DNA of 64,000 nucleotides, from contig MHLM01000012.1 of NCBI GenBank assembly GCA_001821395.1, forward strand, positions 32,001 to 96,000, written 5' to 3'. The notes beneath the pieces were generated by a model. It did not search any database, was not told where the DNA came from, and saw only the letters and a program-made list of their open reading frames with translations. A program made the translations under genes and the position numbers. Below, one piece after another: positions 1,699 to 62,235 of the stretch. Each line of letters opens with the position of its first letter. The first letter of the stretch is position 1. The DNA is from Candidatus Lloydbacteria bacterium RIFCSPHIGHO2_02_FULL_50_18 (lineage in GTDB: Bacteria; Patescibacteriota; Minisyncoccia; Phycocordibacterales; UBA6899).

Positions 1699-2835
1699 AT
1701 GAGCGAGAAAATTCAGCAACAGGCAGAAGACGGAGAGGTGCAGCAAATTTCTTCCTTGACTGACATTGATTCAAGCACTAGGACGACAAGCACCGAGGAA
1801 GGTGATGGCGTTGTCACGGGTGATATCGGTACATCAGAAACGGTTTTTCCGCAGTTTGGTACCGTCGGAGATGTGGGAGAAACCTATGAATTGACGAGTA
1901 ATTTTTCCGAACTCGGTGATCCGATGCAAACTCTGGAACGATCACAACTACTTTGGGATGCACTTGCGCCGGAGGTTGTTGATCGACTCCTCGCAGATTC
2001 TCCGTTTAGCAGCGAGGAATTTTTGGCACTACCTGATGCAGATAAGAATGCCGCGCTTAATATCGTTGAAGATAGCGCAGTCGCTGCTGCCATGGCGCAG
2101 GAAGCCCCATCCGCCCGTGTCGCAGTGGTTTCATCAGAACTTACCCTAGCTGACGATCAGTCGATCGCGGCGAAGTCGATGAGGTGGGGTCGGTCTCTCG
2201 GTGCCGCATTAATAGTGGGGCTTGGCGCAACCCTTGCGCCGGGTGTTGCAAGTGCCGGTGGTCATGATGATAATATTTTCAAGTCATTTGGAGATAGCAT
2301 CGTGCATGGAGTTAAAAGAGATGTGCGTGAGGCGGGGAGAGATAGCGGCGCGGTGTTGGGAGGGGTTGTGCGCATCATCATCGATCGTTCGGTAAATCAG
2401 ACAGCAGTGCAAATACTTGGAGCGGCCGGAGTGCCGGCACAGCAGGCCCCGGAGGAAGTTGTTGTTGTGCCGAGAAGTGTTCCTGGCGCGTATGGCGGCG
2501 GATACGGAGGTCAATACGAAGTACGCGGACGGAGTGCCGGCGAATACGAAGCGCATGGATACGGCGGTCGCGGAATGGAGAGCAGTGAGCGTATTCGCAT
2601 AAAACAGGATATTAACCGTCTCGTGTCACAAGAGAGGGCACTCACAATTCAGGCGGAAAATTCACGGAGAACGGTAATGCAAACTTACGCTCAGTTGAGC
2701 GGGAGCAGAAATGACCTGAGTCTTCGGGCAAGATATGATGCAGAGCGGAGCCAGTACGAATATACCGTGGGAATGATTAGGACTCTCCGGGGTCAGATCG
2801 GCGACCTGAGCGGTAGACTCAGTCAGACGCCATAA
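1699..2835 (+). CDS. Hypothetical acidic protein with a central hydrophobic segment, a GYGG-repeat region and a C-terminal coiled coil (378 aa)
   Basis: Long ORF ending in a terminator hairpin at about 2857-2890; the composition (TM-like GAALIVGLGATLAPGVASAGG, GYGGGYGG repeats) suggests a surface or secreted protein. Confidence 0.5.
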   Translation: MSEKIQQQAEDGEVQQISSLTDIDSSTRTTSTEEGDGVVTGDIGTSETVFPQFGTVGDVGETYELTSNFSELGDPMQTLERSQLLWDALAPEVVDRLLADSPFSSEEFLALPDADKNAALNIVEDSAVAAAMAQEAPSARVAVVSSELTLADDQSIAAKSMRWGRSLGAALIVGLGATLAPGVASAGGHDDNIFKSFGDSIVHGVKRDVREAGRDSGAVLGGVVRIIIDRSVNQTAVQILGAAGVPAQQAPEEVVVVPRSVPGAYGGGYGGQYEVRGRSAGEYEAHGYGGRGMESSERIRIKQDINRLVSQERALTIQAENSRRTVMQTYAQLSGSRNDLSLRARYDAERSQYEYTVGMIRTLRGQIGDLSGRLSQTP

Positions 2836-2856
2836 GGTGTTGATCAGCGTCTGGTG

Positions 2857-2890
2857 AAAAACATCCCATATTCGATGGGGTGTTTTTATT
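2857..2890 (+). terminator. Rho-independent terminator
   Basis: Hairpin AACATCCCAT...ATGGGGTGTT followed by TTTTTATT. Confidence 0.5.
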
Positions 2891-2956
2891 ATCGCAAACG
2901 AGATAGTTGCCCTAATTTGAATTTTAAGCTACTCTTGCGACACGACCGAAGTATAT

Positions 2957-3037
2957 CGGGGCGTGGTGTAATGGCTAACATGTCTGGTTTTCAGGATAGA
3001 GACCAGATGACAAGAGACAGCGTGACGTAGTGAGGAA
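2957..3037 (+). pseudogene. Partial tRNA-Pro copy: the 5' half duplicated with its upstream flank, an altered 15-nt anticodon loop and no T-arm
   Basis: 2948-2990 is near-identical to 3038-3080, but the downstream sequence does not fold into a T-arm or acceptor stem. Confidence 0.6.
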
Positions 3038-3046
3038 GAAGTATAT

Positions 3047-3119
3047 CGGGGCGTGGTGTAACGGCTAACATGTCTGGTTTGGGACCAGATGACTCCGGGT
3101 TCGAATCCCGGCGCCCCGA
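3047..3119 (+). tRNA. tRNA-Pro (anticodon UGG)
   Basis: Manual cloverleaf: 7-bp acceptor CGGGGCG/CGCCCCG, D-arm, anticodon stem TCTGG/CCAGA with loop TTTGGGA, T-arm CCGGG-TTCGAAT-CCCGG, discriminator A, and no encoded CCA. Confidence 0.85.
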
Positions 3120-3163
3120 CTAAATAAAGAAAAGACCTTCAAGGAGGTCTTTTCTTTATTTAG
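3120..3163. other. Perfect 18-bp-stem hairpin (CTAAATAAAGAAAAGACC / GGTCTTTTCTTTATTTAG)
   Basis: Read directly from the sequence immediately downstream of the tRNA. Confidence 0.7.
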
Positions 3164-3190
3164 TCGAAGGCGCGAGGAGCACAGCTCCGA

Positions 3191-3283
3191 GAGGGATTCG
3201 AAGCCCTTCTCCCATATTTATGAAGGATTCTTATCCTGAGTAAATGGGAAAGGGGTACTGACGCAGTAGGCGTCGAAATTCCC
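3191..3283. repeat. Structured repeat element, copy 2, fused to a duplicated 3' end of tRNA-Pro (TTCCCGGCGCCCCGACTAAATAAA at about 3275-3300)
   Basis: Aligns to 48-139. The tRNA 3'-terminal 24 nt is repeated about 160 bp downstream of the intact tRNA. Confidence 0.6.
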
Positions 3284-3412
3284 GGCGCCCCGACTAAATA
3301 AAAAAACTGCCTTTTGGCGGTTTTTTTATTAAATCTTCAAGATTGAAAATCACCTGCGGCGGTAAGGGTAGATCTCAGTTTTCAATGACTGAGAAGGCGT
3401 CATCGATAAAAA

Positions 3413-3476: not shown

Positions 3477-4058
3477 GTGAAGAATCCCGAATACGAAGAA
3501 GGTGGACATGATGAAAAAAAAGACCTATTCCTTTTTGAGTTGGACGGGGATCTTTACGCTGTACCCGTTGAACTCGTCGATCGAGTAATGAAAATACCTC
3601 CGATCACTCCGATCCCCAATGCGCCGGCGGCAATTGTTGGTATCTTCCACTTGCGCGGAAAGGTCGTTTTGACCCTCGACCTCTCAAGTCGTATGGGTAT
3701 TTCCAGAATGAAGCCCTTAAGTCAAAACTTTCTTTTTGTCGTGCGGTATAAAAATGATCAGTTCGCCATTTTGATCGATACACCTAAGGTCATTGTACAC
3801 ATCCCAGCGAGCGAAATTCATCGTCCCGACTCCATTCTTACGGCCCGATTATCACCGCAATATGTCCAGGGAACCTTCATGTTTCAGGAGGTAACAAAAG
3901 TGAAAGTCCCTAATCATTCGATCTTCATCGAGCATATTGGTGGGGTTGACCGGAGGCCTGAAGAAATTCCACCATCACTTCGACCGGTACTCCTCCTTGA
4001 CCTTGAGCGAGTCCTTGACCAGGAGGATCTTCAGCACATGTTTATTTCACAGGAGTAA
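3477..4058 (+). CDS. cheW: Chemotaxis coupling protein CheW
   Basis: CheW-like domain (FxLRGxVxxVLDL-like motifs); an alternative ATG start at 3509 has a GAAGGTGG ribosome-binding site. Confidence 0.8.
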   Translation: MKNPEYEEGGHDEKKDLFLFELDGDLYAVPVELVDRVMKIPPITPIPNAPAAIVGIFHLRGKVVLTLDLSSRMGISRMKPLSQNFLFVVRYKNDQFAILIDTPKVIVHIPASEIHRPDSILTARLSPQYVQGTFMFQEVTKVKVPNHSIFIEHIGGVDRRPEEIPPSLRPVLLLDLERVLDQEDLQHMFISQE

Positions 4059-19450: not shown

Positions 19451-19763
19451 AAAAAGTGTGGATAAATTAATACTAAAATTACTTTCTCCAGTATAGCAAA
19501 ACCCACACTTTTTGTGACGATACCGATCGCAACAGAGAAATTCAGCAAAATGAAAGCCATCCGACCACGCTTCTCCGCGGGGCATTCGCCTCCGCTGGTG
19601 TTCGGTAATAGTGCTTTATTGCCGACGTAGAGCGAGCGACCTAAAATTTCATCGAGTCTCTGCGAGTACTGAAATTTGGAAGTACTCTCTGTGGTGCGAA
19701 ATGAAAAAGTCTTCTTTTTCATTTCCGGGCGACCAATTTTTCTTAGCAGTATTCTGCTTTAGA

Positions 19764-19899
19764 AAAATGGAAGTACTCACCGTGGTGCCGAGGAGAGCTA
19801 AAAAAGGTTTAATACCCCGCGGCACAGCCCTAGACTCGCGCGAGGCTTTGCGAGCCCATCGCGAGTCCAGGGCTTGCCCTGGGGTTTAATACCTTTTAT
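19764..19899 (+). repeat. Repeat element A (about 136 bp), the inverted partner of 61154-61296
   Basis: About 97% identical to the reverse complement of 61154-61296. Contains an 11-bp direct repeat GGTTTAATACC flanking a GC-rich palindromic core; a partial terminal copy lies at 19679-19700. Confidence 0.85.
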
Positions 19900-19904
19900 T
19901 AAAC

Positions 19905-19935
19905 AAAACGTCCCCAATGTAACATTGGGGACGTT
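19905..19935. terminator. Bidirectional terminator (AAACGTCCCCAATGTAACATTGGGGACGTTT)
   Basis: Perfect 12-bp-arm palindrome downstream of hppA. Confidence 0.75.
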
Positions 19936-59777: not shown

Positions 59778-61043
59778 TTGGTCATGCCCGAAGATGAAGC
59801 CAACCAATCCTCAGCCGCATCCGGGAGTCTAGGCGGTCTTCCCGATAGTGTAGCTCCTTCGGCCAGCGTGGAACCAAAAATAATTTCATCACCAGCACCA
59901 ATGGTCTCCTCTGTTGTGTTACCCGTGGCGAATCCTATCGATCCTGCGGCGACAGAGAGTTCCGCAAATAATGAGAAGCATCTGCTACTCATTGCGCATC
60001 TATTGAATCAGGTTCGCATCAAAAAGTCTGAGATAGGTGCTGCTCGCGATAAGATGGGTCAATTGGGGCGCGAGAGCGCGCAATTGCAAACCGAAATGCA
60101 CCATATTGAGCAAGACGTGCGCCGTGTTGAGGGAGAGTTGTACCAGGTCAAGCTTGATGCCAATAAGCAAGAGAGCACGTCAAAAGGAGAGCAGGTTGGC
60201 ATGAACGATAAAGATACGGAACTGAAAAGGCGGAGCGATGGCATCGCGAGGCTCGAGCGAGATATCGATAAATTGAAGCAAGCGATCGCCGAGCGAGAGC
60301 AACGAATAGCTGAGATAAAAACTGAAAATAGTTCACTTGCGAAATCAAAGGAGGACCTCAGGCGAAAGATCGAGCTCGAACTTGCAGGCATCAGGGTCAA
60401 GGCCGAAAAAGCACGCGAGAAGGAAACCGCGATACGGCGCATAAAACAAGATCATGAACGGAAAAAGATGGAGATCTTTCACAAGAAGAGTGCGCCTGTT
60501 GACCGCTTACACTCAGCTCTAGATAACCAGCGGGAGGTTTCCCGACTGGAGTCCGACCTGCGGCATATTGAGCAGGAACTGTCGCGCACAGAGGGCGAGC
60601 TCCGTCTTATCGAAACGAGTGAGCACCAAGAAGAGAATACATCAAGGGTGGATCAGGGTGAGATGCGCAATAGGGATATGGTGATCTATAAAACAGGAGA
60701 TGAGGTTGTTAAGCTCGGCAGAGAGATAGGGCGGCTGAACGTTGAGATTGCCGAGAAGGAAAGTGAGATAGCAAAGCTGGGCGGTGAAGGTCAGGAGTTG
60801 AGAAAGGGAAGAGAGGAGTTACGGCGACGGTATGAACTCGAGCATTTTAGTGCAAACTCAGGATTTACGCTTGCGCATGAGAAAGAGCTTCAGCTCTCTC
60901 GTTTTAAGCAGGGATTTCTTTTGAAGGAGGATAAGATCAAAAAGAACGAACATGCGCAAATACAACTACGCCATGACCTCATCTCCCTTGAGCAAGATCT
61001 GGCAACGGTTGAAGCAGAATTGCGTCATGCTAACAGTGCATAG
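59778..61043 (+). CDS. Hypothetical long coiled-coil protein (421 aa)
   Basis: Heptad-rich sequence with Glu/Arg/Lys/Leu repeats; SMC-like or tropomyosin-like composition. Confidence 0.45.
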   Translation: MVMPEDEANQSSAASGSLGGLPDSVAPSASVEPKIISSPAPMVSSVVLPVANPIDPAATESSANNEKHLLLIAHLLNQVRIKKSEIGAARDKMGQLGRESAQLQTEMHHIEQDVRRVEGELYQVKLDANKQESTSKGEQVGMNDKDTELKRRSDGIARLERDIDKLKQAIAEREQRIAEIKTENSSLAKSKEDLRRKIELELAGIRVKAEKAREKETAIRRIKQDHERKKMEIFHKKSAPVDRLHSALDNQREVSRLESDLRHIEQELSRTEGELRLIETSEHQEENTSRVDQGEMRNRDMVIYKTGDEVVKLGREIGRLNVEIAEKESEIAKLGGEGQELRKGREELRRRYELEHFSANSGFTLAHEKELQLSRFKQGFLLKEDKIKKNEHAQIQLRHDLISLEQDLATVEAELRHANSA

Positions 61044-61153
61044 CTCTTGATGTGTAACACACTCTGCCGTCACGGGAGACGAACTCTTGCGGGGAAATCT
61101 AAGGACAACGTCAGGTGATGATATGGTTGTGCTTCGATAGTTTATTGTTCAGT

Positions 61154-61296
61154 AAAAGGTATTAAACCCCAGGGCAAGCCCTGGGCTCGCGATGGGCTCG
61201 CAAAGCCTCGCGCGAGTCTAGGGCTGTGCCGCAGGGTATTAAACCTTTTTTAGCTCTCCTCGGCACCACGGAGAGTACTTCATTTTTTTATGTTCA
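61154..61296 (-). repeat. Repeat element B, the inverted copy of 19764-19899
   Basis: Reverse complement is about 97% identical to element A; a partial terminal copy lies at 61381-61397. Confidence 0.85.
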
Positions 61297-61343
61297 GAAT
61301 ATTATCTTAACCTATGCTATAGCATAGGTTAAGATAATATTCT
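61296..61343. repeat. 48-bp perfect palindrome (AGAATATTATCTTAACCTATGCTA | TAGCATAGGTTAAGATAATATTCT)
   Basis: Checked base by base: 24-nt arms with no spacer. Confidence 0.9.
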
Positions 61344-61494
61344 TGATGTAGATATACATGTGTACACTTTTTTAATCGCACCACGAGAGTACTTCCATTC
61401 TTCTAAGGTGGAGTACCACCAAGAAGAATTGGTCGCTCGATGAAATCGCTCTACATCGGCAATAAAAAAACGAACCCGAGGGTTCGTTTTGTCT

Positions 61495-62235
61495 TCATTC
61501 AGTGTGCTGGCGCATTTTTCGCGCTTCGGCAACAAGTCGCTCGAGCGTGTCCGTTGCGATATGGTTTACCATCTCCGATTCAGTCATTGTGGTCGTATCG
61601 ATGAGTTGGATCTGCGGATATTTCGGCGAAAGTTCTTCATGCATCGTCCGATAGCGGTCCACGAGTTTGCGGATCGACGCGGGGTTCGATGTCTCACCGA
61701 GCTTGTCCGAGAGTGCGATACGTTGTCCGCGGCGCATTGCTTCTTCAGGTTCACATACCACGACATAGGAGGCGATGATACGGTCTACCCAAAAACGCAG
61801 CAGGAAGAATTGCTGGATGAGTTCACGCTCTTCACCGGAGAGCAGTCCCTTGTCTTGCCAGTACATCATCCACGCGTACGGGTCAAAGATCGAACGATCA
61901 AAGATCACCACATCGTAAGCATGACCATGTGTGTAGTCGATGACCATCTCGAGCGCATAGAGTGCGGTGCGGATGTTGTATTCCGGAGTCGTACGCGGAA
62001 TATGTCCGATTACTTCGGCGCCTTCTTGCGGAATGTGCACGCGCAATCCTCTGCGTTTCAAGAATTTATAAAGTTCCTTGATGCAGGTCGTTTTTCCCGA
62101 ATCCGGAGAACCGGTGAATTCGATAAGGAATGGGCGTGGCAAGAATGTACCTCCGTAACGCACGTCCGTTCGCAGGTATCCGTGCAGCATGTCCGCCATG
62201 AGTTCGAGGCGGGCAATGTCGATGGTTTTTGACAT
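61495..62235 (-). CDS. Deoxynucleoside-kinase-like P-loop kinase
   Basis: Walker A FTGSPDSGKTT and a DRS motif (VVIFDRSIFD) typical of the dNK/dCK/TMPK fold; followed by a terminator on the minus strand at about 61460-61493. Confidence 0.5.
   Translation of the reverse strand: MSKTIDIARLELMADMLHGYLRTDVRYGGTFLPRPFLIEFTGSPDSGKTTCIKELYKFLKRRGLRVHIPQEGAEVIGHIPRTTPEYNIRTALYALEMVIDYTHGHAYDVVIFDRSIFDPYAWMMYWQDKGLLSGEERELIQQFFLLRFWVDRIIASYVVVCEPEEAMRRGQRIALSDKLGETSNPASIRKLVDRYRTMHEELSPKYPQIQLIDTTTMTESEMVNHIATDTLERLVAEARKMRQHTE

What the first reader, a model, noticed from the sequence alone, without database searches (positions are those of the whole stretch)
61296..61343. 48-bp perfect palindrome next to repeat element B
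Two 24-nt arms are perfectly complementary with no spacer (AGAATATTATCTTAACCTATGCTA | TAGCATAGGTTAAGATAATATTCT). Perfect palindromes of this length are rare and unstable. This suggests a cruciform or protein-binding site, for example for a resolvase or recombinase, a partition protein or a replication terminator, or the end of a hairpin-forming mobile element. It abuts the inverted repeat paired with the one at 19.8 kb.
Basis: seen in the sequence. Interest (0 to 1): 0.5.

Follow-up and report, generated by a model that had tools for sequence, protein, structure and literature searches.

The report
Orphan PaaX-type operator palindrome
The 48-bp perfect palindrome is real, and it belongs to a previously undescribed family of dyad sites that in other candidate-phyla-radiation (CPR) bacteria sit on both sides of the gene for a small PaaX-like DNA-binding protein; here a lone copy, with no such gene nearby, lies inside a non-coding repeat element, so it is most likely a repressor-binding site or the remnant of one.

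Summary
Positions 61296-61343 form a perfect 24+24 palindrome with no spacer. It is identical in six metagenome assemblies and has unique flanks, so it is not an artefact.

It lies inside, not beside, the repeat shared with 19.8 kb. A 93-nt, 24%-GC segment replaces the middle of one hairpin unit of that repeat.

Its central 20-mer occurs in three other CPR contigs, each time with different but again perfectly symmetric arms. In two of them the copies bracket a ~190-aa gene encoding a winged helix plus a Cas2-like domain ("mini-PaaX"; best fold match E. coli PaaX). Ten of 11 such cassettes carry a 32-50 bp dyad on both sides. The upstream dyad overlaps a leaderless promoter, and arm type tracks protein relatedness. 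The typical 36-40 bp span matches the PaaX operator TGATTC-N27-GAATCA.

Best explanation (0.5): an orphan PaaX-type operator, followed by a degenerate half-dyad with a -10-like box. No cognate gene lies in the window. Rivals are a footprint of a mobile cassette, an RNA hairpin, and a recombination site. No recombinase gene, GC-skew switch or terminator features were found. I rate it a new variant of a known kind, of moderate interest.

The parts
61296..61343 (.). 48-bp perfect palindrome, 25% GC
   Evidence: identical in six assemblies
61301..61338 (.). Canonical 38-bp dyad inside the palindrome: 9-nt arm ATTATCTTA, 20-nt centre, arm TAAGATAAT. This is the length of the copies in L039b, L040 and L041.
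61310..61329 (.). Conserved 20-nt centre ACCTATGCTATAGCATAGGT (GCTATAGC at 61316-61323), shared exactly with L039 (two copies), L040 and L041
61344..61367 (+). Degenerate centre plus right half of a second dyad, TGATGTAGATATACATGTGTACAC. It matches 19 of 24 positions, ungapped, with the promoter-bearing dyad upstream of the L039 mini-PaaX gene and contains -10-like boxes (TAGATA/TATACA).
61283..61375 (+). 93-nt AT-rich segment (24% GC) with no homology to the 19.8-kb copy of the element. A 74-nt core (61291-61364) is bounded by the 10-nt direct repeats CATTTTTTTA (61281-61290) and CACTTTTTTA (61365-61374).
61263..61282 (+). 5' motif of hairpin unit U3 (GCACCACGGAGAGTACTTCA). The hairpin and 3' motif of this unit are replaced by the palindrome-bearing segment.
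   Evidence: 30 bits, truncated match
61378..61436 (+). Intact hairpin unit U4 (GCACCAC-GAGAGTACTTCC, hairpin, TTGGTCGC)
   Evidence: 62 bits
61154..61251 (.). Long GC-rich hairpin A of the composite element, bounded by GGTATTAAACC repeats and by A/T runs
61467..61490 (.). Bidirectional intrinsic terminator shared with the convergent AAA_28 gene (61495-62235, minus strand)
19600..19910 (-). Second, uninterrupted copy of the composite element: hairpin A, unit U1 (19729-19788), an inter-unit hairpin and unit U2 (19636-19697). It serves as the reference for what is replaced at 61.3 kb.

Best explanation
The palindrome is an orphan dyad-symmetric binding site of the PaaX-operator type. It has two inverted arms (ATTATCTTA / TAAGATAAT, extended here by 5 bp on each side) around a conserved GCTATAGC-centred core. 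In other CPR genomes near-identical or related dyads sit directly before the start codon and directly after the stop codon of a ~190-aa 'mini-PaaX' gene, which encodes an N-terminal winged helix plus a Cas2-like dimerisation fold and lacks the ligand-binding C-terminal domain. There the upstream dyad overlaps the promoter of a leaderless mRNA, which is the arrangement expected for autorepression by occluding RNA polymerase. In this Lloydbacteria window a complete dyad and the centre-plus-right half of a second, promoter-type dyad sit without the gene, inside one hairpin unit of a dispersed non-coding repeat, between two convergent genes. What is shown: the palindrome is real, the dyad family exists, it is associated with the gene, and it overlaps promoters in the cassettes. 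What is inferred: a mini-PaaX encoded elsewhere in the genome binds the site, and the site either gates rightward transcription into unit U4 or blocks read-through, or else is a recently stranded remnant of a cassette boundary.
For: (1) The exact 20-nt centre occurs in three other metagenome contigs, always with different arms that are again perfectly symmetric, giving 38-50 bp in total. (2) In L039 and L040 the copies bracket a PF20803 PaaX_M gene (E about 1e-19). (3) Ten of 11 distinct cassettes (L039, L040, L042-L046, L052, L064, L066, L068) have a 32-50 bp dyad on both sides. The upstream dyad lies 0-45 nt before the ATG and the downstream one 0-50 nt after the stop. (4) The L039 upstream dyad contains TGTACA-17-TATAAT (10 of 12 consensus positions), ending 6 nt before an ATG. 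By eye, -10-like boxes (some extended, TGn) lie 6-9 nt before the ATG in most other cassettes, which implies leaderless mRNAs and operators that overlap the promoter. (5) Arms fall into two classes, CACAA(A)C and CCTATCT-like (the window's ATTATCTTA resembles the latter), and arm class follows protein relatedness: L044-L066 63% identity, L046-L068 69%, and L040-L042 69% despite different centres. (6) The protein model's best solved-structure match is E. coli PaaX 8a39 (E = 2.7e-5), followed by PaaX-like proteins, MarR/PadR winged-helix proteins and Cas2 folds. NCBIfam gives sub-threshold hits to PaaX and hits at about the curated threshold to Cas2. (7) The E. coli PaaX site is TGATTC-N27-GAATCA, a 39-bp span, and PaaX represses its own promoter by steric hindrance (PMC9493321). 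Most dyads here span 36-40 bp. (8) Window positions 61344-61367 match the L039 promoter dyad's centre and right half at 19 of 24 positions.
Against: No mini-PaaX gene lies in the 64-kb window: the best E-value of a profile HMM against 599 six-frame ORFs is 0.29, and tblastn finds nothing. The rest of the genome could not be scanned. No sigma-70-like promoter passes the scan next to the window site, and the site lies between convergent genes, where an operator has no obvious target. In at least five cassettes the downstream dyad also faces a convergent gene, which simple operator function does not explain. Perfect symmetry over 38-50 bp, including a conserved centre, is more than a pair of 6-bp half-sites needs. 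The sample is 11 cassettes chosen from more than 1,400 homologues, and four of the perfect copies were found by searching for the perfect centre itself. No binding data exist.
Confidence: 0.5

Rival explanations
1. The palindrome is a footprint or terminus of a mobile or selfish mini-PaaX cassette, or a small MITE-like palindromic element that uses that protein. On this view the dyads are terminal repeats recognised by the winged-helix/Cas2-like protein, arranged like REP sequences around a RAYT gene, and the window copy is a solo end left after insertion into the loop of unit U3 and loss of the gene.
For: The gene is bracketed by two copies of the same dyad in 10 of 11 cassettes. In the P0060 cassette the asymmetric centre is inverted between the two copies, like terminal inverted repeats. 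In L044 the cassette and a 152-aa ORF sit on the opposite strand inside the ribosomal-protein operon, between S14 and L5. Cassette neighbourhoods differ between lineages. Many homologues lie on contigs of about 1 kb. The window segment has 24% GC against 49% for the window and is bounded by the 10-nt direct repeats CAYTTTTTTA. Relatives lack the whole element at the syntenic position. Solo dyads also exist in L041, L039b and L026.
Against: No target-site duplication is seen around any cassette. Identical proteins were mostly found in a single genomic context, with P0044's differing upstream flank (L064 vs L065) the one exception. Copy number is low: one copy in 64 kb and only three contigs in the metagenome scan. 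There are no viral hits. The protein has no known transposase or recombinase fold. The window's direct repeat is a low-complexity T-run that could arise by chance.
Confidence: 0.2
2. The palindrome acts at the RNA level. It is an unusually long, perfect version of the variable hairpin of unit U3 within a transcribed tandem-hairpin non-coding RNA, for example a double-stranded-RNA processing or stability element.
For: It occupies the position of the unit's hairpin, and homology to unit U1 runs into the first roughly 8 nt of the left arm (CAGAATA). Unit hairpins have variable arms with changes on both sides in 7 of 8 stem pairs. Unit loops carry the same centre motifs as the cassette dyads: CTCCCTACGGTCGT and TCGCTATGCTCG. 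The whole region folds far better than shuffles (z = -12).
Against: U3 lacks its 3' arm and its TTGGTCGC motif, so the unit is disrupted rather than extended. The same dyads elsewhere overlap promoters of leaderless genes and so would not be transcribed there. There is not one G-U pair or mismatch in roughly 40 variable arm pairs. The transcribed strand of the units is unresolved. Rfam has no matching family.
Confidence: 0.1
3. The palindrome is a site-specific recombination or DNA-processing site, such as a resolvase/invertase crossover site, a Xer/dif site, a protelomerase target, or a cruciform at a replication terminus or partition site.
For: It has perfect dyad symmetry. Related dyads have a 2-bp asymmetric centre (CG-GT-CG), like serine-recombinase crossover sites, and occur in both direct and inverted pairs around a gene. 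The winged-helix half of the protein model also resembles the AspA centromere-binding protein.
Against: No recombinase, protelomerase or ParB domain is annotated within 6 kb on either side, though six of those genes have no Pfam hit. Cumulative GC skew rises steadily through 58-64 kb. The site is embedded in a chromosomal region of housekeeping genes (EF-G, EF-Tu, S10 operon), with unique sequence on both sides in six assemblies and no rearranged variants.
Confidence: 0.05
4. The palindrome is an assembly artefact, a foldback or chimeric read.
For: Zero-spacer perfect palindromes are a classic product of foldback artefacts.
Against: The sequence is identical in six assemblies from several samples and assemblers. 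The flanks are unique and not complementary to each other. Related dyads occur in unrelated contigs.
Confidence: 0.01

Closest known systems
E. coli / Pseudomonas PaaX operator (TGATTC-N27-GAATCA) and PaaX autoregulation of Px
   Same: Both have inverted half-sites about 33 bp apart, for a total span of 36-40 bp against 39 bp. Both overlap the regulator's own promoter. The associated protein's best structural match is PaaX (winged helix plus Cas2-like middle domain).
   Different: The CPR protein lacks the C-terminal phenylacetyl-CoA-sensing domain and matches the PaaX equivalog model far below its cut-off (33-50 bits against 264.5 bits). No paa genes were seen next to the cassettes. The spacer is itself a conserved palindrome. 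A second dyad follows the stop codon. Symmetry can be perfect over 38-50 bp. Binding is untested.
REP/REPIN sequences and their RAYT (IS200/IS605-like TnpA) genes
   Same: A single gene is flanked by its cognate palindromic repeats, and solo copies lie in intergenic regions, often between convergent genes.
   Different: The protein is not an HUH/Y1 transposase. Copy number is very low: one in 64 kb and three contigs in a scan of 241 million records. There is no conserved 5' tetranucleotide. The dyads overlap promoters.
Protelomerase target sites (for example the N15 telRL 56-bp palindrome; from my own knowledge)
   Same: Long, perfect, zero-spacer palindromes with an alternating pyrimidine-purine centre.
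   Different: There is no protelomerase gene, the site lies in a chromosomal housekeeping context, it has no phage hits, and the contigs continue through it.
CRISPR repeats with Cas2
   Same: Partly palindromic repeats of 36-40 bp lie next to a gene that annotation pipelines call Cas2.
   Different: Only two repeats are present, and they bracket a 0.6-kb gene rather than 30-40-nt spacers. There is no cas1 or effector gene. The Cas2 similarity covers only the first 35-45 residues of the fold.

Membership tests
PaaX-type operator | Inverted half-sites separated by about 27 bp, for a span of about 39 bp | tested here: met
   Dyads span 32-40 bp in most cassettes (38 bp in L039b, L040, L041, L042 and L068) and 48-50 bp in the window and L039a. 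Conserved arm motifs lie at the outer ends.
PaaX-type operator | The site overlaps the promoter of a regulated gene, including the regulator's own | tested here: inconclusive
   This is met for the upstream dyads of cassettes (L039 has TGTACA-17-TATAAT, and -10-like boxes lie 6-9 nt before the ATG elsewhere). At the window site only -10-like boxes follow the palindrome, and no promoter passes the scan.
PaaX-type operator | A cognate PaaX-family regulator is encoded in the same genome | tested here: inconclusive
   None was found in the 64-kb window.
PaaX-type operator | Specific binding by the protein, released by a ligand | not testable with these tools
   This needs EMSA or footprinting. The C-terminal ligand domain is absent from the CPR protein.
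PaaX protein family (for the associated gene) | N-terminal winged helix, Cas2-like middle domain and C-terminal helical domain | tested here: not met
   The first two domains are present (PF20803 at E = 1e-19; Foldseek 8a39 at E = 2.7e-5). The C-terminal domain is absent (about 190 aa against 305 aa), and the TIGR02277 score is far below its cut-off. It is therefore a truncated relative, not a PaaX equivalog.
REP/RAYT system | Tens to hundreds of dispersed copies per genome | tested here: not met
   The window holds one copy. The exact centre occurs in only three metagenome contigs.
REP/RAYT system | The flanked gene encodes an HUH/Y1 transposase | tested here: not met
   The gene encodes a winged-helix plus Cas2-like protein.
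MITE / small transposable element | Terminal inverted repeats plus target-site duplication, and multiple copies | tested here: inconclusive
   A 10-nt T-rich direct repeat bounds a 74-nt segment in the window. However, there is no duplication around cassettes and the segment is single-copy.
Intrinsic terminator | A GC-rich stem followed by a U-tract | tested here: not met
   The stem is 25% GC and no T-run follows on either strand. The scan reports only 61467-61490.
Site-specific recombination site (dif/res/hix/telRL) | A cognate recombinase nearby; for dif, a position at the GC-skew switch | tested here: not met
   No recombinase domain is annotated in the 12.7-kb neighbourhood, though several genes there have no Pfam hit. 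GC skew is monotonic across the site.
Known RNA families (Rfam 15) | A match at or near the gathering score | tested here: not met
   Only tRNAs reach gathering scores in the window. Around the site only generic hairpin (miRNA-type) matches appear, far below threshold.
CRISPR array | At least three regularly spaced repeats with 25-50-nt spacers | tested here: not met
   The window holds a single complete copy plus a half copy. In cassettes, two copies lie about 0.63 kb apart.

The most novel reading that the evidence does not exclude
The dyads and the mini-PaaX protein together form a new kind of self-contained genetic module in CPR bacteria. In this reading a winged-helix protein with a Cas2-like nuclease fold recognises extruded or hairpin forms of its flanking palindromes, and of the same centre motifs in the loops of the CPR-wide 'GCACCAC...GGTCGC' hairpin units. 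The protein would either mobilise the cassette, in a way analogous to REP/RAYT but with an unrelated enzyme, or link DNA dyads and a family of tandem-hairpin RNAs in one regulatory network. The window palindrome would then be a footprint of that activity inside a hairpin unit.
Probability: 0.13. Interest if true: 0.8.

Novelty: new variant of a known kind. Interest (0 to 1): 0.5.

Why it matters
CPR (Patescibacteria) bacteria have tiny genomes and few recognisable regulators, and almost nothing is known about their cis-regulatory DNA. If the reading is right, a family of more than 1,400 mini-PaaX proteins, routinely mis-annotated as 'Cas2' or 'PaaX', can be linked to a recognisable operator architecture: 36-50 bp dyads on both sides of the gene, with modular arms and centres. 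That would give a directly testable protein-DNA pair for uncultivated organisms. It would also explain some orphan long palindromes in CPR assemblies and flag false Cas2 calls. The same analysis exposed a conserved, unannotated hairpin-unit repeat that deserves its own study.

Tried and rejected
- **Rfam:** the gathering-threshold scan of the window and the E-value scan of 61000-61550 found only tRNAs and generic hairpin matches.
- **Viral collection:** the palindrome centre has no hit. The unit motif has one hit, which lies in coding sequence and is a chance match. The mini-PaaX protein has no viral relatives.
- **Synteny:** a tblastn search for syntenic copies of the window's flanking genes among the CPR loci holding hairpin units found none.
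- **Promoter and terminator scan at the site:** no promoter was found, and the only terminator is the hairpin at 61467-61490.
- **Other candidate operators in the window:** a search for sites with the same arms or the same centre found none.
- **Sequence search of solved structures:** the mini-PaaX protein gave no hit at E <= 1. Only the fold search found PaaX.
- **PADLOC:** only weak matches to the N-terminus of Cas2, and no defence system.
- **Literature:** searches for PaaX with CPR, Cas2-like with palindromes, and Patescibacteria repeat elements found nothing describing these dyads or units. TTHA0973 (PMC6651687) turned out to be a different type of regulator and is not relevant.
- **Strand of the hairpin units:** the attempt to decide it failed. 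G-U pairs in the arms favour the GCACCAC strand, but a possible 5-bp helix GUACU/GGUGC exists only on the opposite strand.
- **Fixed-column covariation counting:** this was blurred by 1-nt register shifts in the AT-rich stems.
- **Rejected readings:** a T-box-like or tRNA-3'-end-pairing role for the units was considered but left unsupported. CRISPR, protelomerase and dif readings were rejected; see the membership tests.

Full report
**1. The observation**

Positions 61296-61343 read AGAATATTATCTTAACCTATGCTA|TAGCATAGGTTAAGATAATATTCT. The two 24-nt arms are 100% complementary and have no spacer.
- A perfect palindrome of this size is expected about 2e-10 times in 64 kb.
- The arm has no other match in the window, even with 3 mismatches.
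- As single-stranded DNA it folds at -20.3 kcal/mol, against -3.0 +/- 1.6 for shuffles.
- It has 25% GC in a window of 49% GC.

The window is a contig from Rifle aquifer groundwater (JGI 3300002502). It comes from a Candidatus Lloydbacteria population. The same 48-mer, with the same unique and non-complementary flanks, is present in six assemblies made from several samples with different assemblers. A foldback or chimeric artefact is therefore excluded.

**2. Local anatomy**

The site lies in a 451-nt intergenic region. On the left is a coiled-coil ORF (59778-61043, plus strand). On the right is a convergent AAA_28 gene (61495-62235, minus strand).

That spacer holds a composite non-coding element that also occurs, inverted, at about 19600-19910. 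The element consists of:
- a long GC-rich hairpin bounded by GGTATTAAACC repeats (61154-61251);
- a T-run;
- 'units' of the form GCACCAC(N)GAGAGTACTTCC, AT-rich stem, variable loop, stem, TTGGTCGC;
- a conserved tail and a terminator.

The 19.8-kb copy has two intact units separated by a small hairpin. In the 61-kb copy the first unit keeps only its 5' motif. From 61283 to 61375 there is a 93-nt, 24%-GC segment with no counterpart at 19.8 kb. So the palindrome is inside the repeat, not beside it.

Homology to unit U1 continues into the first roughly 8 nt of the left arm (CAGAATA). The 74 nt at 61291-61364 are bounded by the direct repeats CATTTTTTTA and CACTTTTTTA.

Relatives of the AAA_28 gene at 68-70% identity have only 63-135 nt with a plain terminator at this position. 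The whole element is therefore a lineage-specific addition.

**3. The palindrome elsewhere**

The central 20-mer ACCTATGCTATAGCATAGGT has no match in the viral collection. It matches three metagenome contigs.

In every copy the centre is flanked by different arms that are again perfectly symmetric:

| Copy | Left arm | Total length |
|---|---|---|
| L039a | TTAATCACGTACACA | 50 bp |
| L039b | ACGTACACA | 38 bp |
| L040 | CTACACACA | 38 bp |
| L041 | TATCTCACT | 38 bp |
| window | AGAATATTATCTTA | 48 bp |

L039 and L040 each carry a further, slightly imperfect copy. In both contigs two copies bracket a ~190-aa ORF that matches Pfam PF20803, the 'PaaX central Cas2-like domain' (E about 1e-19).

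**4. The gene-dyad association is general**

The protein has at least 1,452 homologue clusters, in Kaiserbacteria and other Patescibacteria. They are often annotated 'Cas2' or 'PaaX', and many lie on contigs of about 1 kb. I examined 11 distinct cassettes.
- Ten have a dyad or quasi-dyad of 32-50 bp on both sides. The upstream one lies 0-45 nt before the ATG and the downstream one 0-50 nt after the stop.
- The two copies within a cassette share their arms, but arms differ between cassettes.
- Centres are of a few types: GCTATAGC, ACGGTCGT (or TCGGYCGG, GCGGTCGC), and CCATGG.
- Arms fall into two classes: ...CACAA(A)C and ...CCTATCT. The window's ATTATCTTA resembles the second class.
- Arm class follows protein relatedness. 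L044-L066 share 63% identity and L046-L068 69%. L040-L042 share 69% and the same arms but have different centres.
- The 8-mer GCTATAGC occurs at 11 sites in about 294 kb of held CPR DNA, and 10 of them are at the centre of a hairpin-forming dyad.

**5. What the upstream dyads do**

In L039 the imperfect upstream dyad contains TGTACA-17-TATAAT (10 of 12 consensus positions). It ends 6 nt before an ATG that fits the conserved N-terminus. In most other cassettes a -10-like box (some of the extended TGn type) lies 6-9 nt before the ATG, and several dyads abut the ATG with no room for a ribosome-binding site. These are my readings of the sequences. This is the layout of a leaderless gene whose promoter is covered by a dyad, that is, an autoregulatory operator.

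**6. The protein**

An AlphaFold model has a mean pLDDT of 73, above 86 in the C-terminal half. It shows a winged helix followed by a ferredoxin-like domain. Its best solved-structure match is E. coli PaaX (8a39, E = 2.7e-5, TM-score 0.55 relative to the query). Next come PaaX-like proteins, MarR/PadR/AspA winged-helix proteins and Cas2.

NCBIfam gives sub-threshold matches to PaaX and matches at about the curated threshold to the Cas2 N-terminus. PADLOC gives only weak Cas2 matches. The C-terminal ligand-binding domain of PaaX is missing.

According to a review, E. coli PaaX binds TGATTC-N27-GAATCA, a 39-bp span, and represses its own promoter by occluding RNA polymerase (PMC9493321). The dyads here have the same geometry, mostly 36-40 bp with conserved motifs at the outer ends.

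**7. Back to the window**

Directly after the palindrome, 61344-61367 (TGATGTAGATATACATGTGTACAC) matches the centre and right half of the L039 promoter dyad (TGCTATAGCATATAATGTGTACAT) at 19 of 24 ungapped positions. The window therefore holds one and a half dyads. The half-dyad carries -10-like boxes and points rightwards into unit U4, where a mini-PaaX gene would normally start.

No mini-PaaX gene is in the window. The best profile-HMM E-value is 0.29 over 599 ORFs, and tblastn is negative. No second site with these arms or this centre exists in the 64 kb.

**8. Best explanation and rivals**

*Best explanation (confidence about 0.5).* The palindrome is an orphan PaaX-type operator dyad. It is either still bound by a mini-PaaX encoded elsewhere in the genome, or it is a recent remnant of a cassette boundary. 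If bound, it would gate transcription into U4 or act as a roadblock between convergent genes.

*Against it.*
- The cognate gene was not found, and the rest of the genome could not be scanned.
- No promoter passes the scan at the site.
- Dyads downstream of the gene often face convergent genes.
- Perfect symmetry over 38-50 bp exceeds what a pair of half-sites requires.
- The sample is small and partly selected, because the metagenome scan used the perfect centre as its query.

*Rival 1, about 0.2: terminus or footprint of a mobile cassette, in a REP/RAYT-like arrangement.* For it:
- the bracketing of the gene by two dyads;
- the inverted asymmetric centres in the P0060 cassette;
- the cassette lodged in the ribosomal-protein operon between S14 and L5 in L044;
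- the AT-rich inserted segment with short direct repeats;
- the solo copies in L041, L039b and L026.

Against it: there are no target duplications, identical proteins mostly occur in a single context (P0044 is the exception), copy number is very low, and the protein has no transposase fold.

*Rival 2, about 0.1: an RNA hairpin of a tandem-hairpin RNA.* The disrupted state of U3 and the promoter overlap of dyads elsewhere argue against it.

*Rival 3, about 0.05: a recombination, partition or terminus site.* No recombinase domain is annotated within 6 kb on either side, though several genes there have no Pfam hit. GC skew is monotonic.

**9. The surrounding units**

The hairpin units are themselves a conserved family. 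The motif GCACCACN{0,1}GWGAGTACTTC occurs in Taylorbacteria, Lloydbacteria, other Parcubacteria and Saccharibacteria MAGs.
- A covariance model finds 38 units in the held CPR loci, 4 of them in the window and none in mini-PaaX loci.
- Seven of eight stem pairs change on both sides, though the register slides by 1 nt.
- Units occur singly, as two-unit composites, in tandem arrays beside tRNA genes (L012, L018, L037), and nested inside each other's loops (L037).
- They are not in Rfam.
- Their loops carry the same centre motifs as the cassette dyads: CTCCCTACGGTCGTA resembles CTCCCACGGTCGTAG, and ACATTCGCTATGCTCG resembles ACATACGCTATAGCG. This may mean that the same protein family recognises both, but that is conjecture.
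- The strand on which they act is unresolved.

**10. Verdict**

The finding is real and is not ordinary chance or an artefact. It is most simply a regulatory dyad of a known architectural kind, the PaaX operator, attached to an undescribed truncated regulator family and an unusual 'dyad on both sides of the gene' layout. Literature searches found no description of it. I rate it a new variant of a known kind, with interest 0.5.

Noticed in passing
window 19636-19788 (minus strand) and 61263-61436 (plus strand); loci L010-L037: There is a CPR-wide family of roughly 45-65-nt hairpin units: GCACCAC(N)GAGAGTACTTCC, AT-rich stem, variable loop, stem, TTGGTCGC. It is not in Rfam. A covariance model finds 38 copies in about 290 kb of Patescibacteria DNA. 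Units occur as two-unit composites (Lloydbacteria, Taylorbacteria), as tandem arrays of about 54-nt period beside tRNA genes (Saccharibacteria L018, L037), directly after a tRNA-Val CCA end (L012), and nested inside another unit's loop (L037). The 3' end GGTCGC-ACCA looks like a tRNA acceptor 3' end. The functional strand is unresolved.
   Followed up: partly
window 61154-61251 and 19800-19897; L033 about 3800-3830 compared with L015 about 810-910: The leading hairpin of the composite element (AAAGGGTATTAAACCCTTT in Taylorbacteria L033) carries a 66-70-nt GC-rich insert in its loop in L015 and in both window copies. The insert is flanked by direct repeats (TATTAA, or GGTATTAAACC in the window). 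This looks like a small element that inserts into hairpin loops.
   Followed up: partly
window about 120-312: The 3' end of a tRNA-Gly-like gene (TTCGATTCTCCCTACCCGCA), cut by the window edge, is followed by two 88-nt-period tandem repeats sharing a 72-nt perfectly identical stretch. Each contains a hairpin and is followed by a copy of the tRNA 3' end (CCTACNCGCACTAGG in the first repeat; only CCTAC is retained after the second).
   Followed up: no
window 2948-3330: tRNA-Pro (3047-3120) is preceded by a 98%-identical copy of its leader and 5' part (2948-2990). It is followed by a second copy of its 3' end plus a terminator-like hairpin (3280-3330). This pattern is typical of past integration or duplication at a tRNA gene.
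   Followed up: no
L044 2198-3668 (Kaiserbacteria JACRFK010000005.1): A mini-PaaX gene and a 152-aa ORF lie on the opposite strand inside the ribosomal-protein operon, between rpsN (S14) and rplE (L5). The mini-PaaX gene is flanked by its dyads. In L042 and L043 the gene upstream of mini-PaaX is a type IV pilin-like (N_methyl) gene.
   Followed up: partly
L018 2477-2660 and L037 about 2800-2980 (minus strand): In Saccharibacteria a tRNA gene is followed by an element of about 150 nt. Its long closing stem is made of an inverted and a direct copy of that tRNA's own T-arm and acceptor 3' end. Its interior is conserved (GCGACCAGCGTGCTTAGCG...GCTTAGCAAAAGCGGGTC) and it ends in ACCAC, followed by the hairpin-unit array. 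It looks like a mimic of a tRNA minihelix.
   Followed up: no
L026 4717-4762 (Lloydbacteria GFS_1902) and L045 3772-3811: Further 40-bp near-perfect dyads centred on CGGTCG are present. The L026 copy is solo, lies next to a terminator and has no mini-PaaX gene within the 6.6-kb locus. The L045 copy lies about 100 nt downstream of that contig's mini-PaaX gene.
   Followed up: no
protein family P0001-P0120: Many members of the winged-helix plus Cas2-like family are named 'CRISPR-associated endonuclease Cas2' by NCBI or JGI, although none of the cassettes examined has a CRISPR array or other cas genes next to it. This is probably a systematic mis-annotation in CPR genomes.
   Followed up: partly
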